Assembly (NCBI GenBank): GCA_000004985.1
Contig: GG739252.1
Reading direction: 5' to 3' (one strand)
Source: Naegleria gruberi
Taxonomy: Eukaryota
DNA: 2,689 nucleotides
The notes beneath the pieces are model-generated. The model saw nothing but the letters and a program-made list of their open reading frames with translations. It did not search any database and had not been told where the DNA came from. Each line of letters opens with the position of its first letter. Within the stretch, counting starts at the first letter, position 1. Shown here in pieces: positions 16-2,689 of the stretch. Made by a program: the position numbers and the translations under genes.

Positions 16-337
16 ATGTTCAAGTCTTCCAATCTCAAACTCTTCAAAAATTCTTCTTCCATTCTCCGTTCTTCATCATCGTCATCACCAATTATTAATA
101 ATAATAATATTAATAATTTTAAAAAATATTCAACAACAGCAACAACAATGGAATGGATTCCAGTTTCTAAGGACGGTCAAGTCAAGAAGAGAATTATTAC
201 TCAAGGTTCAGGTGCTGAACTCCCACCACACGGATCAAAGGTCTCTGTTCACTACACTGGTACTTTGACTAATGGAAAGAAGTTTGATTCTTCTGTTGAT
301 AGAGGCACTCCATTCTCCTTCAACTTGGGTCTCGGAC
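16..337 (+). CDS. FKBP-type peptidyl-prolyl cis-trans isomerase, exon 1. It starts at ATG 16 and ends in phase 1 after ...FSFNLGLG plus a split codon C|AG. An alternative start is ATG 148 (MEWIPVSK...).
   Basis: Translation contains the FKBP12 core: [32 protein letters not shown]. This matches yeast FPR1 ([31 protein letters not shown]) and human FKBP12. The ORF-track stop at 343-345 (ATG TAG) lies inside a GTATGT 5' splice site at 338-343. The start lies in an A-rich context, aaaaaaATGt. Confidence 0.85.
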
Positions 338-500: not shown

Positions 501-664
501 AGGTTATTAGAGGTTGGGATTTGGGCGTCAAGACCATGAAGAAGGGTGAAAAGGCTATTCTTGAAATTCCATCAGAGTACGCATATGGCTCTCAAGAAAT
601 TCCAAAGTTAATCCCTGCCAATTCTACTTTGATCTTTGAAGTTGAATTGTTGTCATGGAAGTAA
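501..664 (+). CDS. FKBP-type peptidyl-prolyl cis-trans isomerase, exon 2, with stop TAA at 662-664. The full product is 161 aa from ATG 16, or 117 aa from ATG 148.
   Basis: Translation (Q)VIRGWDLGVKTMKKGEKAILEIPSEYAYGSQEIPKLIPANSTLIFEVELLSWK*. It aligns to the FKBP12 C-terminal half (VIRGWEEGV...YAYG...IPP.ATLVFDVELL). Codon usage is yeast-like (TTG, AAG, GGT, CCA). Confidence 0.85.
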
Positions 665-680
665 ATCTACGAAATTATTA

Positions 681-712
681 TTTTAATTAAATTATAAATT
701 TTAATTAAATTA
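681..712 (+). repeat. Direct repeat of TTTTAATTAAATTA (681-694 and 699-712). Each copy holds the perfect palindrome TTTAATTAAA. It lies in the 3' flank of the FKBP gene and is a likely 3'-end formation or AT-rich element.
   Basis: Two identical 14-mers 18 bp apart, read directly from the sequence. TATAAATT at 693-700 sits between them. Located 17-50 nt after the TAA stop. Confidence 0.5.
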
Positions 713-778
713 AAATCTATTCAATTTTTTACAATTCAACTCATCTATTGAAACTTTGACAATATTTTAATCTACAAA

Positions 779-803
779 ATTTGAACATGTTGAGATTTGA
801 ACA
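779..803 (+). promoter_or_regulatory. Direct repeat ATTTGAACA (779-787 and 795-803). It belongs to a cluster of TGAACA motifs in the intergenic region upstream of gene 2.
   Basis: TGAACA occurs at 782-787, 798-803, 875-880 and 946-951 on +, and as GTGAACA on the - strand at 912-918. Five copies fall within about 170 bp of intergenic DNA. Confidence 0.3.
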
Positions 804-963
804 GAGCTCTGAATGAGATTTTCAATTCTCAATATTCTGAAAGATTTCTTTAGTATTGCTACAAAGATCTAGAATGAACATCACCAGGTCTAACAAGTTT
901 AATACAGTTCCTGTTCACGAGCTGTATGTCTTATTATCGAGATAGTGAACATTACGATCCACA

Positions 964-1011
964 GTTCGTATCGTTCGTATCTTTGTATCGTTTGTACCAT
1001 AGTACATGGTA
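964..1011 (+). repeat. Degenerate tandem 9-bp repeat GTTCGTATC x4 (964-972, 973-981, 982-989, 990-998), followed by inverted repeat TACCAT-AGTAC-ATGGTA (995-1011). It is a putative promoter element of gene 2, about 60-100 bp upstream of its ATG.
   Basis: Two perfect copies and two degenerate copies (TTTGTATC, GTTTGTACC), read directly. The 6-bp inverted arms flank a 5-bp spacer. Confidence 0.45.
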
Positions 1012-1038
1012 AAAAGTCAACAGTATTTGAAGGATTTT

Positions 1039-1060
1039 AAAAAACGAAACCTTAAAAAAA
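1039..1060 (+). promoter_or_regulatory. Poly(dA) tracts (A6 at 1039-1044, A7 at 1054-1060) immediately upstream of the gene 2 ATG. This is an A-rich yeast-type start context and a likely nucleosome-excluding leader element.
   Basis: Read directly from the sequence. A-rich tracts before the ATG are typical of Saccharomycotina start contexts. Confidence 0.35.
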
Positions 1061-1066
1061 CAAACA

Positions 1067-1298
1067 ATGAGTAGTCTTTCAAAGTTTTTAAAGGAACCAA
1101 CCACTGTGTATGGTGGACTAAAGGCCAATGATTTAAAGCAAGAACCTCATTATTCTTTTTTTGATGGGGAGAACAAATTCCTTGTTCGTGAAATCGAATC
1201 TCAAAAATTAGTTCCCTTAAAAACGAAACTCTTGTTTGAGAAGGCAGGTAGTTATGAATTTTACACTGTAGAGCATGGATTCATTCCTGTTGAAATGG
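1067..1298 (+). CDS. Hypothetical protein (gene 2), exon 1. It starts at ATG 1067 in the context aaaaaaacaaacaATGa and ends in phase 1 (G|AT split codon).
   Basis: The 79-aa ORF ends at a TAA (1304-1306) that overlaps a GTACGT donor at 1299-1304. The downstream ORF has no ATG near its start, so it must be joined. Codon usage is yeast-like. Confidence 0.7.
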
Positions 1299-1361
1299 GT
1301 ACGTAATTAATCAGTTGGTTTATTAATATTTGGAAAGATTGTAAGCAATTCAAAGTTTCAG
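1299..1361 (+). other. Spliceosomal intron of gene 2, 63 nt, GTACGT...TTTCAG. It is in-frame in length but contains an in-frame TAA.
   Basis: Donor GTACGT at 1299-1304. Acceptor TTTCAG ends at 1361. The length of 63 (3x21) keeps both ORF-track pieces in the same frame (coordinates congruent to 2 mod 3). The alternative donor GTAATT at 1303 breaks the frame. Confidence 0.65.
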
Positions 1362-2071
1362 ATTTGTTACTATTAAACCTTGGTAAAAAGAAGAAGGTCT
1401 ATGAACAAGAATATTATGGAGAAATTTATGATAAGAACGCAAGAATCATTGAAGAGAAACGTTTCTTTCAAGATGATCAAACAGAGCCTTACTTTGGAGG
1501 AAAGGTAGTTGTTGGTATTAAGTCATATTTCGGTAAAATGTTAAGAACAGATAATTCACACAAGAAGCTATTTACCTTTAACAATAAGCCATTGAAAGAA
1601 AAGAAAGAGTTGGTGAAAACTTCCTTGCCTATTGCATCTTTGAAGGAATCTGAACATTCCAAAATTGGTAAGATTTCAATACAATATTATCCATTAACAA
1701 TCAAAGTTACAAGAATATTTCTACGAAATTTCCCTCTCCTTGAAACTTTTGAGATAAACGAAAGAAATAATTTGATTGAATATCTTCATCAAATGGTGGG
1801 CCTTTACATGGCAGATGGAAACTCACGAAAATTCCAAATATTCCTTAATGCAAAAAACGAAAAGGAATTGACGGATTTTCTTATTGAAAAGATGAAACTA
1901 ATCTCTGGAGATTCATTTGGAATCAAGGAACAAATAATTTTTAGAGATTCCGTTCATAATTCTATTTCTTTTGCCAATCAAATTGATTTAACTGAGGATA
2001 CAAAGCAAGATTTGGAAGAAGGTGGATTTTTCGAATCTAATTCTAACATTGTCGCATTGAAATCATTGTAA
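1362..2071 (+). CDS. Hypothetical protein (gene 2), exon 2. It reaches TAA at 2069-2071. The spliced product is about 313 aa. It is a Lys/Glu-rich protein with no domain I can name from sequence alone.
   Basis: The 235-aa open frame begins at a non-ATG codon (TTG) right after the acceptor. It is continuous with exon 1 once the 63-nt intron is removed. The stop TAA overlaps a consensus GTAAGT at 2068-2073 (see findings). Confidence 0.65.
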
Positions 2072-2263
2072 GTAATTTTGTTAACATTATTAATTTTGGA
2101 ATTTTGTAAGTAATAATTTCAACAAGGTCTTACTAGAATTGGAAATTGTAAATGGAACCTCCAAAGTTTACTCCAATATATACAACGCCTCTAATTGGTG
2201 TCTTTCACATGTTTACAAGTTTTTCGAGGGTTCAATTCAGGGAGATGGTTGTTGTAGACCTAA

Positions 2264-2689
2264 CAAGATGAACATCAGATTCACCCACAAATGTATTGTT
2301 TTAAGGTTCCAGATATCACATTCCCTAATGCTAATGGTCAACTCATTCAAAACACAAATCAAGACGTATTTGGAACAAGATACTTTTATGACACCAATAG
2401 ATTTGTAATCAAAGAATTCAATTCATCCATTGACTGTTTCAATGATAGTGTTAAGGTATTGAAAACTATTCATCAAGCAGATGGTACAAATTTGGACAAT
2501 AGTATTAACAAAACAATTAATACTTCACACAAATCCGTTTATGGCACTTCCATCATTCCTAAAAGAAAATTAGAAAAAGAATATGATTCCAATAAGACTA
2601 GGAAGTTTACTGAAGGAAAGATCCATGAATATTTAAGTAAATATACAGTCATTGAAAAGAAGAGCAGATATCATTGTGGTGAATGTGAT
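2264..2689 (+). CDS. 3'-partial ORF (gene 3, or a downstream exon of gene 2) in frame 2. It is open from 2264 to the window end. The first ATG is at 2291. It ends with ...SRYHCGECD, which looks like the start of a C2H2 zinc finger.
   Basis: 142 stop-free codons in AT-rich DNA, with yeast-like codon choice (AGA, GGT, CCA, CAA, TTG). The translation ...MYCFKVPDITFPNANGQLIQNTNQDVFGTRYFYDTNRFVIKEFNSS...KEYDSNKTRKFTEGKIHEYLSKYTVIEKKSRYHCGECD is protein-like. The Y-x-C-x-x-C pattern at the very end fits a C2H2 finger N-terminus. Confidence 0.55.

What the first reader, a model, noticed from the sequence alone, without database searches (positions are those of the whole stretch)
2060..2300. Unresolved junction: the gene 2 stop codon overlaps a consensus GTAAGT, a second GTAAGT and a CTAAC-14nt-CAG follow, and the same reading frame reopens for more than 140 codons
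The gene 2 stop TAA (2069-2071) is embedded in a perfect GTAAGT (2068-2073). A second GTAAGT lies at 2106-2111. ACCTAAC (branchpoint-like CTAAC, 2260-2264) is followed 14 nt later by CAG at 2276-2278. This is textbook yeast intron geometry for 2106..2278. Frame 2, the same frame as gene 2, is then open from 2264 to the window end. Phase arithmetic argues against a simple join. From donor 2068 only the acceptors at 2135-2136, 2165-2166 and 2243-2244 (which hit stops at 2192-2194 or 2255-2257) and those at 2378-2379 and 2399-2400 (which would discard 39-46 good codons) keep the frame. Donor 2106 with acceptor 2278 changes frame, and the exon before it is closed in every frame. Possible explanations are these. 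(a) Two genes only about 220 bp apart, with gene 3 starting at ATG 2291 and possibly a 5'-UTR intron. (b) A single gene with a splicing pattern, or a sequence error or indel near 2040-2110, that I cannot reconstruct. (c) Alternative splicing that toggles between a short isoform ending at 2071 and a zinc-finger-bearing long isoform.
Basis: partly seen in the sequence, partly recalled or inferred. Interest (0 to 1): 0.6.

Follow-up and report, generated by a model that had tools for sequence, protein, structure and literature searches.

The report
Missed short intron in decayed Naegleria gene
The "stop codon" of gene 2 sits in the start of a missed 43-base intron, and the open frame downstream is the stranded tail of the same gene, cut off by an internal deletion that shifts the frame; this is mainly an annotation fix in the amoeba Naegleria gruberi, with a possible nuclease-like gene family as a side lead.

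Summary
The window is a complete 2689-bp Naegleria gruberi contig, not yeast.

A 724-aa N. gruberi paralogue, P0003 (XP_002671538.1), is collinear with three window pieces:
- Gene 2, frame 2, to 2023.
- 2121-2300, frame 3, including YKFFEGSIQGDG.
- 2288-2605, frame 2.

So the two ORFs are remnants of one gene. Donor GTAAGT at 2068 joined to the AG at 2109-2110, which lies inside the second GTAAGT, gives a 43-nt intron. It links frame 2 to frame 3 without a stop and restores collinearity with the paralogue.

The proposed intron 2106-2278 is refuted because it would remove homologous coding sequence.

At about 2250-2290 the window lacks the paralogue's residues 546-621 and shifts from frame 3 to frame 2. 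No plausible intron bridges this gap. The copy therefore carries a deletion with a frameshift, or an assembly error. The predicted spliced product is 419 aa and ends at TAA 2406-2408.

The family carries two LAGLIDADG-like motifs and weak intein-like blocks, but no profile or structure test reached significance.

Overall this is an ordinary annotation and pseudogene case, with a speculative lead on the gene family.

The parts
1067..1298 (+). Exon 1 of the gene (frame 2), starting at ATG 1067. It contains a Hint block-A-like stretch, SFFDGENKFLVREIES, at 1154-1201.
   Evidence: Matches the annotated protein P0001 = XP_002668165.1 / NAEGRDRAFT_76925. Homologous to P0003 from residue 190 onward. 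The block-A reading is by inspection only.
1299..1337 (+). Intron 1, 39 nt (GTACGT...AAAG). It contains the in-frame TAA at 1304-1306.
   Evidence: Implied by comparing P0001 with the window. GC is 0.22-0.26. It is a gene-model prediction; no cDNA was available.
1338..2067 (+). Exon 2 (frame 2). It includes the first LAGLIDADG-like motif, MVGLYMADGNS, at 1793-1825, followed by NAKNEKELT.
   Evidence: tblastn of P0003 residues 172-464 against window 1013-2023 in frame 2, linked E 3e-32. The motif aligns with LLGAYLADGDG of P0003 and with LLGLWIGDG of PI-SceI (E 0.13).
2068..2110 (+). Intron 2, 43 nt, missed by the annotation. The donor is GTAAGT 2068-2073, which holds the 'stop' TAA 2069-2071. 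The acceptor AG is 2109-2110, inside the second GTAAGT.
   Evidence: It is the only consensus-donor GT..AG pair that joins frame 2 to frame 3 without a stop and keeps all homologous residues. It leaves 18 aa between alignment anchors, against 16 in P0003; the unspliced sequence would leave about 32. It has the lowest GC of 1200-2500, at 0.15-0.175.
2111..2255 (+). Exon 3, ancestral part (frame 3). It includes the second LAGLIDADG-like motif, VYKFFEGSIQGDG, at 2211-2249.
   Evidence: P0003 residues 481-545 match window 2121-2300 in frame 3 at 37% identity and 45 bits. The codon-usage score favours frame 3 here: +5.3, against -16.5 and -10.8 for the other frames.
2250..2290 (+). Deletion and frameshift scar. 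P0003 residues 546-621, the core of the second half-domain, have no counterpart here, and coding homology jumps from frame 3 to frame 2. The CTAAC 2260-2264 and CAG 2276-2278 lie inside it.
   Evidence: tblastn HSP ends are at 2300 (frame 3) and 2288 (frame 2), and the alignment gap is visible. No GT..AG intron of 25 nt or more retains MYCFK. By direct reading of the sequence, the only GT..AG pairs within the scar are 14-31 nt, and there is no GC dinucleotide for a GC-AG donor.
2256..2408 (+). Frame-3 read-through tail of the spliced mRNA, mostly out of the ancestral frame, ending at TAA 2406-2408. The predicted product is 419 aa.
   Evidence: Translation of exons 1067-1298, 1338-2067 and 2111-2408. 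A 47-codon off-frame open run is within what is seen elsewhere in this gene, where the longest is 43.
2288..2689 (+). Stranded 3' part of the ancestral gene (frame 2). It begins QMYCFK, with ATG at 2291. It has a Hint block-F/G-like stretch, ITFPNANGQLIQN, at 2315-2353. It runs off the contig end with HCGECD at 2672-2689.
   Evidence: P0003 residues 622-722 match window 2288-2605 in frame 2, E 8e-7. The frame is open for 142 codons, P about 6e-6 by chance. No annotated protein and no k-mer homologue were found.
2066..2124 (+). Direct repeat of 21 nt (2066-2086 and 2104-2124, 81% identity, spacing 38). It explains why GTAAGT occurs twice.
   Evidence: the repeat finder family D2.

Best explanation
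The window is one small Naegleria gruberi contig. It carries an FKBP gene and a single gene of a Naegleria-specific family whose fuller members are XP_002671538.1 (724 aa) and XP_002679634.1 (558 aa).

The annotated stop of gene 2, TAA 2069-2071, is not the end of the gene. It lies in the 5' splice site of a 43-nt GT-AG intron, 2068-2110. The acceptor AG is the AG inside the second GTAAGT. After splicing, the reading frame continues in frame 3 through a second LAGLIDADG-like motif at 2211-2249.

At about 2250-2290 this copy has lost roughly 76 codons relative to its paralogues, and the frame slips from 3 to 2. The spliced mRNA therefore reads out of frame to TAA 2406-2408, giving a 419-aa product. 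The long frame-2 ORF from 2264 (ATG 2291) to the contig end is the orphaned 3' part of the same ancestral gene.

Shown: collinear homology of the three pieces to one protein, the frame arithmetic, and the absence of any bridging intron. Inferred: that the 43-nt intron is actually spliced, that the deletion is real rather than an assembly artefact, and that the family is a highly diverged intein/HO-like LAGLIDADG nuclease. On that last reading, the window copy, which lacks most of its second half-domain, could not be an active enzyme.
For: Identity of the contig: P0001 is 'predicted protein [Naegleria gruberi]', and its longest contig is 2689 bp.

Paralogues were found by a full HMMER scan and a follow-up search.

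tblastn of P0003 against the window gave three collinear HSPs:
- Residues 172-464 to window 1013-2023, frame 2.
- Residues 481-545 to window 2121-2300, frame 3. These two are linked at E 3e-32.
- Residues 622-722 to window 2288-2605, frame 2, E 8e-7.
A MAFFT alignment shows the same picture.

Intron 2068-2110:
- It is the only consensus-donor join without a stop.
- It leaves 18 aa between anchors, against 16 in P0003.
- It coincides with the GC minimum.
- The same gene already has a modelled 39-nt intron of similar sequence.
- Codon usage supports frame 3 for 2111-2262.

No intron can bridge frame 3 to frame 2 while keeping MYCFK.

LAGLIDADG reading:
- The motif positions are among the best-conserved blocks between paralogues that are 33% identical.
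- hhalign pairs motif 1 with PI-SceI 207-232 and motif 2 with PI-SceI 299-376.
- A chained alignment with PI-SceI reaches z=2.4, with 5 of 300 shuffles as good.
- The PI-SceI sequence used was verified as 100% identical to 1DFA/1VDE.
Against: - No transcript evidence for either short intron could be obtained.
- A 43-nt intron length was not verified for N. gruberi from the literature. The only support is a predicted range of 9-95 bp in the related Acrasis kona (PMC11589745).
- The downstream frame-2 ORF is intact for 142 codons. That is unexpected for an old pseudogene. It fits a recent deletion, an assembly or cloning artefact in this tiny Sanger contig, or independent use of that ORF.
- The LAGLIDADG/intein assignment is not statistically established. 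Pfam, NCBIfam, PHROGs and PDB sequence searches give nothing. hhalign reaches only E=0.13. AlphaFold models have pLDDT of about 35, and the fold search on them is meaningless.
Confidence: 0.7

Rival explanations
1. Assembly, cloning or sequencing artefact. The genome holds an intact gene, and the missing codons (about 76) and the frame slip at about 2250-2290 arose in this 2.7-kb Sanger scaffold. In that case the true gene is a single long ORF with two short introns.
For: The contig is only 2689 bp and is the sole record of this gene. All three coding segments are otherwise free of stops, and the downstream frame is open for 142 codons (P about 6e-6 by chance). That is easier to explain if the gene is really intact.
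Against: A clean loss of about 230 bases is not a typical read error. No second copy or allele of this gene exists among the annotated proteins: the cluster has 1 member, and the 1.84-billion-protein scan found only P0001 and P0002. The paralogue P0002 also lacks blocks, so decay seems common in this family.
Confidence: 0.18
2. Two separately expressed genes. Gene 2 ends at 2071 or at 2408, and the downstream ORF is translated on its own from ATG 2291, as a split-gene remnant that has kept a function.
For: The ATG at 2291 sits exactly where the downstream homology starts. The ORF is intact for at least 133 codons and runs past the paralogue's C-terminus to a CxxC-containing end.
Against: The Met is ancestral, since P0003 also has KKMYCFKK, so it is not evidence of a new start. 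The pieces are collinear fragments of one protein. There is no annotated model and no homologue for the downstream ORF alone. Only about 40 nt separate it from the upstream coding sequence, which leaves no room for a terminator and a promoter.
Confidence: 0.08
3. A yeast-type intron at 2106-2278 (GTAAGT...CTAAC...CAG), or regulated alternative splicing, links gene 2 to a zinc-finger-bearing long isoform.
For: The three motifs are present at the stated coordinates.
Against: This intron would remove 2121-2255, which is homologous coding sequence and includes the most conserved motif of the family. The organism is Naegleria, not a yeast. Two GTAAGT copies is within chance. The junction RNA shows no special structure, z=+1.77.
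Confidence: 0.02

Closest known systems
Naegleria gruberi predicted proteins XP_002671538.1 (NAEGRDRAFT_73307, 724 aa) and XP_002679634.1 (NAEGRDRAFT_47624, 558 aa)
   Same: True homologues. They show about 26-37% identity in collinear blocks covering the N-terminal domain, both LAGLIDADG-like motifs (G.Y.ADG and YKFFEGS.QGDG) and the MYCFK...FP..NG...QN block.
   Different: They carry N-terminal Myb repeats (PF00249 and PF13921). The window copy lacks these, and no Myb remnant is found upstream. They retain the roughly 76 aa after motif 2 that the window has lost. The window copy extends further at its C-terminus. P0002 itself lacks three blocks that are present in P0003.
PI-SceI (VDE, the VMA1 intein; PDB 1VDE/1DFA/1LWS) and its standalone yeast relatives HO and WHO
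   Same: The block order inferred for the Naegleria family matches: an N-terminal Hint-like block, two LAGLIDADG motifs each ending in a conserved Asp-Gly, a helix ending ...LGL after motif 2, and a C-terminal ...F..NG..VQN that aligns with ...FLLANQVVVHN at the very end of PI-SceI. Like HO and WHO, it would be a standalone intein-like protein fused to a DNA-binding module, with copies at various stages of decay (PMC7282813).
   Different: No significant sequence or profile match was obtained: hhalign E 0.13, no Pfam Hom_end, Hom_end_hint or LAGLIDADG hit, and chain alignment p about 0.02. The TxxH splicing block and the His of the terminal His-Asn are absent. The fused DNA-binding module is Myb at the N-terminus, not a C-terminal zinc finger. 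The neighbouring gene is FKBP, not FBA1, and no duplicated target fragment was seen. The host is a heterolobosean amoeba and the gene has spliceosomal introns.
Gene models truncated at an unrecognised short spliceosomal intron whose GTAA donor supplies a false stop codon
   Same: The TAA of the annotated stop is the TAA of GTAAGT. Removing 43 nt restores a reading frame that homology supports.
   Different: In this case the restored frame soon meets a second, real lesion (deletion plus frameshift), so correcting the model does not give an intact protein.

Membership tests
Spliceosomal GT-AG intron (2068-2110) | GT...AG boundaries with a consensus 5' splice site | tested here: met
   GTAAGT at 2068-2073 and AG at 2109-2110. 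The other two introns in the window begin GTATGT and GTACGT.
Spliceosomal GT-AG intron (2068-2110) | Removal restores an open frame that is collinear with homologous proteins | tested here: met
   Joins frame 2 to frame 3 without a stop. Between alignment anchors there are 18 aa in the window and 16 aa in P0003; unspliced, there would be about 32.
Spliceosomal GT-AG intron (2068-2110) | Composition distinct from the flanking exons | tested here: met
   GC is 0.15-0.19, the minimum of 1200-2500.
Spliceosomal GT-AG intron (2068-2110) | Spliced junction seen in cDNA or RNA-seq, and length within the species' intron range | not testable with these tools
   No N. gruberi transcript or genome data could be reached. 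Indirect support only: a modelled 39-nt intron in the same gene, and a predicted 9-95 bp range in Acrasis kona (PMC11589745).
LAGLIDADG homing endonuclease, double-motif type | Two LAGLIDADG motifs about 100-130 aa apart, each ending in a conserved acidic residue followed by Gly | tested here: met
   By inspection and alignment. P0003 has LLGAYLADGDG and LYKFFEGSVQGDG. The window has MVGLYMADGNS (1793-1825) and VYKFFEGSIQGDG (2211-2249). hhalign pairs each motif with the matching PI-SceI motif.
LAGLIDADG homing endonuclease, double-motif type | Significant match to a LAGLIDADG profile (Pfam LAGLIDADG_1/2/3, Hom_end) or to a solved LAGLIDADG sequence | tested here: not met
   No hit even at E<=10 in Pfam, NCBIfam, PHROGs or PDB sequences. 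hhalign against PI-SceI gave E=0.13.
LAGLIDADG homing endonuclease, double-motif type | Alpha-beta-beta-alpha-beta-beta-alpha fold in each half | tested here: inconclusive
   The AlphaFold2 models have mean pLDDT 35.7 and 35.4. The order of secondary-structure elements is compatible, but the models are unusable, and Foldseek returned noise.
LAGLIDADG homing endonuclease, double-motif type | A complete second half-domain, needed for an active monomer, in the window copy | tested here: not met
   About 76 residues after motif 2 (P0003 546-621) are absent from the window, and the frame shifts.
Intein / HO / WHO-like (Hint domain enclosing a LAGLIDADG nuclease) | Hint blocks A, B, F and G in the right order around the nuclease | tested here: inconclusive
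   Motif-level only: S(Y/F)..G(D/E).(E/K)F.VRE near the N-terminus and (S/T)FP..NG.(I/L)(V/I)QN near the C-terminus. The chained alignment with PI-SceI ends exactly at the intein's last residue, with z=2.4 and 5 of 300 shuffles as good. The window copy alone is not significant.
Intein / HO / WHO-like (Hint domain enclosing a LAGLIDADG nuclease) | Protein-splicing residues: Cys/Ser1, block B TxxH, terminal His-Asn followed by Cys/Ser/Thr | tested here: not met
   By inspection. A Ser is possible at position 1. No TxxH block was recognised. The terminal pair is Gln-Asn, not His-Asn, and is followed by Val in P0003 and Thr in the window. Homology continues on both sides of the putative intein boundaries, so there are no independent exteins.
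Intein / HO / WHO-like (Hint domain enclosing a LAGLIDADG nuclease) | C-terminal zinc finger with several CxxC motifs (defines HO and WHO) and location beside the target gene with a duplicated target fragment (WHO) | tested here: not met
   Only one CxxC (HCGEC, 2672-2689) is visible before the contig ends. The paralogues carry N-terminal Myb domains instead. The neighbouring gene is FKBP, and no duplicated fragment was found. Definitions are from PMC7282813.
Pseudogene / degenerate paralogue | A disabling lesion relative to intact relatives | tested here: met
   A 76-codon gap plus a frame 3 to frame 2 shift at about 2250-2290, with no bridging intron.
Pseudogene / degenerate paralogue | The lesion is present in the genome and is not an assembly artefact | not testable with these tools
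   No independent N. gruberi sequence of this locus could be retrieved.

The most novel reading that the evidence does not exclude
Naegleria gruberi harbours a lineage-restricted family of standalone, intein-derived (Hint plus double LAGLIDADG) endonuclease-like genes. These genes have acquired spliceosomal introns, are fused to different DNA-binding modules (N-terminal Myb repeats in XP_002671538.1, possibly a C-terminal Cys-rich module in the window copy), and exist as copies at different stages of decay. That would be a non-fungal counterpart of the yeast HO/WHO elements, either selfish or domesticated.
Probability: 0.3. Interest if true: 0.65.

Novelty: new member of a known kind. Interest (0 to 1): 0.33.

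Why it matters
In practical terms, the annotated protein XP_002668165.1 (NAEGRDRAFT_76925) is truncated at a false stop inside a 5' splice site. The locus is better described as one gene, probably a decayed one. This is a concrete example of how introns of about 40 nt that begin GTAA can mislead both gene callers and human readers.

In biological terms, it exposes a small family of unannotated "predicted proteins" seen only in N. gruberi in the data searched. They have two LAGLIDADG-like motifs and intein-like block order, and some are fused to Myb DNA-binding domains. [quoted passage not shown] If the LAGLIDADG/intein reading is confirmed, this family would be a comparable standalone fusion of an intein-like nuclease to a DNA-binding module, found outside fungi. 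That would open a question about selfish or domesticated nucleases in heteroloboseans. The present evidence for this is weak.

Tried and rejected
1. Third intron to return from frame 3 to frame 2. All GT..AG pairs were enumerated.
- 2405-2448 (44 nt, GTAATC..ATAG) was attractive because its GTAA again holds the frame-3 stop. It was rejected because 2405-2448 encodes IKEFNS..., homologous to IREMDN of P0003 in frame 2, and because its GC of 0.30 is exon-like.
- 2366-2400 was rejected for the same kind of reason.

2. Programmed -1 frameshifting. No X XXY YYZ slippery site lies in 2264-2290 (read directly from the sequence), and there is no structure.

3. Codon-usage scoring to choose between frames 2 and 3 for 2264-2404 had too little power: +4.2 against -1.0.

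4. A Myb remnant upstream of ATG 1067. The best alignment score of 32 is within the shuffle range, mean 29.3 and maximum 41.

5. Homologue searches.
- The downstream ORF alone found nothing.
- The 1.84-billion-protein scan with P0001 found only P0002.
- Viral and metagenome scans, including a degenerate YKFFEGSxQGDG DNA pattern, found nothing.

6. Genomic DNA of the paralogues or independent copies of the locus are not on record.

7. Family assignment by Pfam, NCBIfam, PHROGs, PDB sequence, AlphaFold2 (two runs) and Foldseek was negative or unusable in every case. Global hhalign was uninformative.

8. The similarity between introns 1 and 2 (shared TTATTAAT.TTTGGA) is not significant: 166 of 2000 shuffles scored as well.

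9. The literature search for N. gruberi intron lengths was unsuccessful.

10. Rfam found no RNA family.
Full report
**What the window is.** A protein search with the gene 2 product returned one protein, P0001. It is labelled 'predicted protein [Naegleria gruberi]', 321 aa, 98% identical over the whole query, and recorded on a contig of exactly 2689 bp. Its accessions are XP_002668165.1, NAEGRDRAFT_76925 and D2W682. So the window is a complete small scaffold of the heterolobosean amoeba N. gruberi (31% GC), not a yeast. Gene 1 is an FKBP (Pfam FKBP_C, E 7e-11) with a 163-nt GTATGT...TAG intron at 338-500. The annotated gene 2 model uses exons 1067-1298 and 1338-2071 with a 39-nt intron.

**Checking the observation.**
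- TAA 2069-2071 lies inside GTAAGT 2068-2073.
- A second GTAAGT is at 2106-2111.
- CTAAC is at 2260-2264 and CAG at 2276-2278.
- Frame 2 is open from 2264 to the end, 142 codons.

Two GTAAGT copies in the window is not more than chance: the expected count is 1.07, and 59 of 200 shuffles had at least 2. They occur twice because a 21-nt stretch is directly repeated at 2066-2086 and 2104-2124 with 81% identity. The 142-codon open frame is far beyond chance in this A+T-rich DNA, with P about 6e-6.

**Relatives settle the one-gene question.** The k-mer search found no relatives of gene 2 other than itself, and none for the downstream ORF. A full HMMER scan of 1.84 billion representative proteins with P0001 found one relative, P0002 (E 6.6e-6). 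A search with P0002 then found P0003. Both are N. gruberi 'predicted proteins' on large contigs: XP_002679634.1 (558 aa) and XP_002671538.1 (724 aa). Both have N-terminal Myb repeats.

tblastn of P0003 against the window gives three collinear matches:
- Residues 172-464 to window 1013-2023 in frame 2.
- Residues 481-545 to window 2121-2300 in frame 3. These first two are linked at E 3e-32.
- Residues 622-722 to window 2288-2605 in frame 2, E 8e-7.

A MAFFT alignment shows the same picture. Gene 2, the frame-3 stretch and the downstream ORF are therefore pieces of one ancestral gene.

**The first junction is a missed 43-nt intron.** I enumerated every GT..AG pair that joins frame 2 before 2112 to frame 3 before motif 2 without a stop. 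There are four. Only one has a consensus donor and keeps all homologous residues: donor GTAAGT at 2068 with the AG at 2109-2110, which is the AG inside the second GTAAGT. The evidence for it:
- Removing 2068-2110 leaves 18 residues between the alignment anchors, where P0003 has 16. Unspliced, there would be about 32 codons and a frame change.
- The 43 nt have a GC of 0.19, and the 40-nt windows across them are the GC minimum of the whole 1200-2500 region.
- Codon usage favours frame 3 for 2111-2262.
- The annotated 39-nt intron 1 has a similar build, although the similarity is not significant beyond composition.

I could not confirm from the literature that introns of about 40 nt are normal in N. 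gruberi. The related Acrasis kona is reported with predicted introns of 9-95 bp (PMC11589745). No transcript data were reachable.

It would delete 2121-2255, which is 37% identical to P0003 and contains the family's most conserved motif.

**The second junction is a lesion, not an intron.** After ...GDG (2249) the frame-3 homology fades. The frame-2 homology starts at QMYCFK (2288/2291). P0003 residues 546-621 have no counterpart anywhere in the window. Every GT..AG intron of 25 nt or more that converts frame 3 to frame 2 has its acceptor at 2312 or later, so it removes homologous frame-2 coding sequence. Reading the scar sequence directly, the only GT..AG pairs inside it are 14-31 nt, there is no GC-AG option, there is no slippery site for frameshifting, and the RNA is not structured.

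The spliced mRNA should therefore run on in frame 3 to TAA 2406-2408, giving a 419-aa product whose last 40 or so residues are out of the ancestral frame. A 44-nt GT..AG pair at 2405-2448 would restore frame 2. I rejected it as an intron because it is homologous coding sequence in frame 2 and has exon-like GC.

The window copy has thus lost most of what would be the second half-domain and is frame-shifted. The remaining puzzle is that the stranded frame-2 ORF is still intact for 142 codons. This fits a recent deletion, an artefact in this tiny Sanger scaffold, or independent use of that ORF. I cannot separate these possibilities with the available tools.

**What the gene family may be.** The paralogues share conserved blocks that I read as follows:
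- An N-terminal Hint-like block: S(Y/F)..G..(E/K)F.VRE.
- LAGLIDADG motif 1: LLGAYLADGDG in P0003 and MVGLYMADGNS in the window, followed by NAKNE.ELT.
- LAGLIDADG motif 2: (L/V)YKFFEGS(V/I)QGDG.
- A C-terminal block: MYCFK....FP..NG...QN.

I used PI-SceI as the comparator and confirmed my copy of its sequence to be 100% identical to PDB 1DFA/1VDE. hhalign pairs family motif 1 with PI-SceI 207-232 and family motif 2 with PI-SceI 299-376. A gap-tolerant chained alignment places the family's ...MIVQN on the intein's final ...VVVHN, with z=2.4 and 5 of 300 shuffles scoring as well.

This is suggestive only. hhalign reaches E=0.13. Pfam, NCBIfam, PHROGs and PDB sequence searches find nothing apart from the Myb domains. 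Two AlphaFold2 runs gave pLDDT of about 35, and Foldseek on such a model is noise. The splicing residues (TxxH, and the His of the terminal His-Asn) are not present, and homology runs on past both putative intein ends. If the family is intein-derived, it is therefore a standalone, non-splicing form, as HO and WHO are in yeasts (PMC7282813). No relatives were found in viral or metagenome collections.

**Verdict.** Mechanistically:
- The 'stop' at 2069-2071 is the TAA of a 5' splice site.
- The second GTAAGT supplies the acceptor.
- The CTAAC...CAG motifs are chance features inside a deletion scar.
- The reopening of frame 2 is the orphaned tail of the same gene.

My confidences are about 0.95 that the pieces come from one ancestral gene, about 0.8 that 2068-2110 is a spliced intron, about 0.7 that the deletion is genomic rather than an artefact, and about 0.5 that the family is a diverged LAGLIDADG or intein-like nuclease. 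As a finding it is largely ordinary: a gene-model error plus a decaying paralogue. The family itself is a modestly interesting lead.

Noticed in passing
window 16-337 + 501-664 (+): FKBP-type prolyl isomerase gene with a 163-nt GTATGT...AATAG intron. It has a 44-residue Ser/Asn-rich N-terminal extension before an internal Met (MEWIPV...), which may be a targeting peptide or an over-extended start. My spliced 161-aa model is not in the protein collection as an exact sequence, so the deposited model, if there is one, differs.
   Followed up: partly
window 2066-2086 and 2104-2124: A 21-nt direct repeat (81% identity, 38 nt apart) places nearly the same sequence, TTGTAAGTAAT, at both ends of the 43-nt intron. 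This recalls models of intron origin by local duplication, but the spacing of 38 does not equal the intron length of 43.
   Followed up: no
window 2405-2448: The frame-3 stop TAA 2406-2408 again sits inside a GTAA (GTAATC). A 44-nt GT..AG pair here would put the reading back into frame 2 through to the contig end. It was rejected as an intron on homology and GC, but the coincidence is unexplained. This is the third time in this gene that a stop is embedded in GTA(A/C).
   Followed up: partly
P0002 versus P0003 (alignment A1): The two large-contig paralogues are about 95% identical where aligned. P0002 lacks three whole blocks: one Myb repeat, the block holding LAGLIDADG-like motif 1, and the 40 aa before motif 2. 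Either P0002's gene model splices out degenerate sequence, or this copy is also partly deleted. Copies of the family may be decaying in different places.
   Followed up: no
window 665-1066 and 2606-2689: The window copy has no Myb domain and no detectable Myb remnant upstream. It does continue about 28 residues past the point where P0003 ends, finishing with SRYHCGECD at the contig edge. The DNA-binding or accessory modules attached to this family seem to differ between copies.
   Followed up: partly
window 1299-1337 versus 2068-2110: The two short introns share GTA.GTAATT...TTATTAAT.TTTGGA...AAG. The similarity is not significant against composition-matched shuffles (166 of 2000).
   Followed up: yes
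window 2153-2165 and 2299-2311: A 13-nt inverted repeat (85% complementary) brackets motif 2 and the deletion scar. It is probably chance, and no link to the deletion was tested.
   Followed up: no
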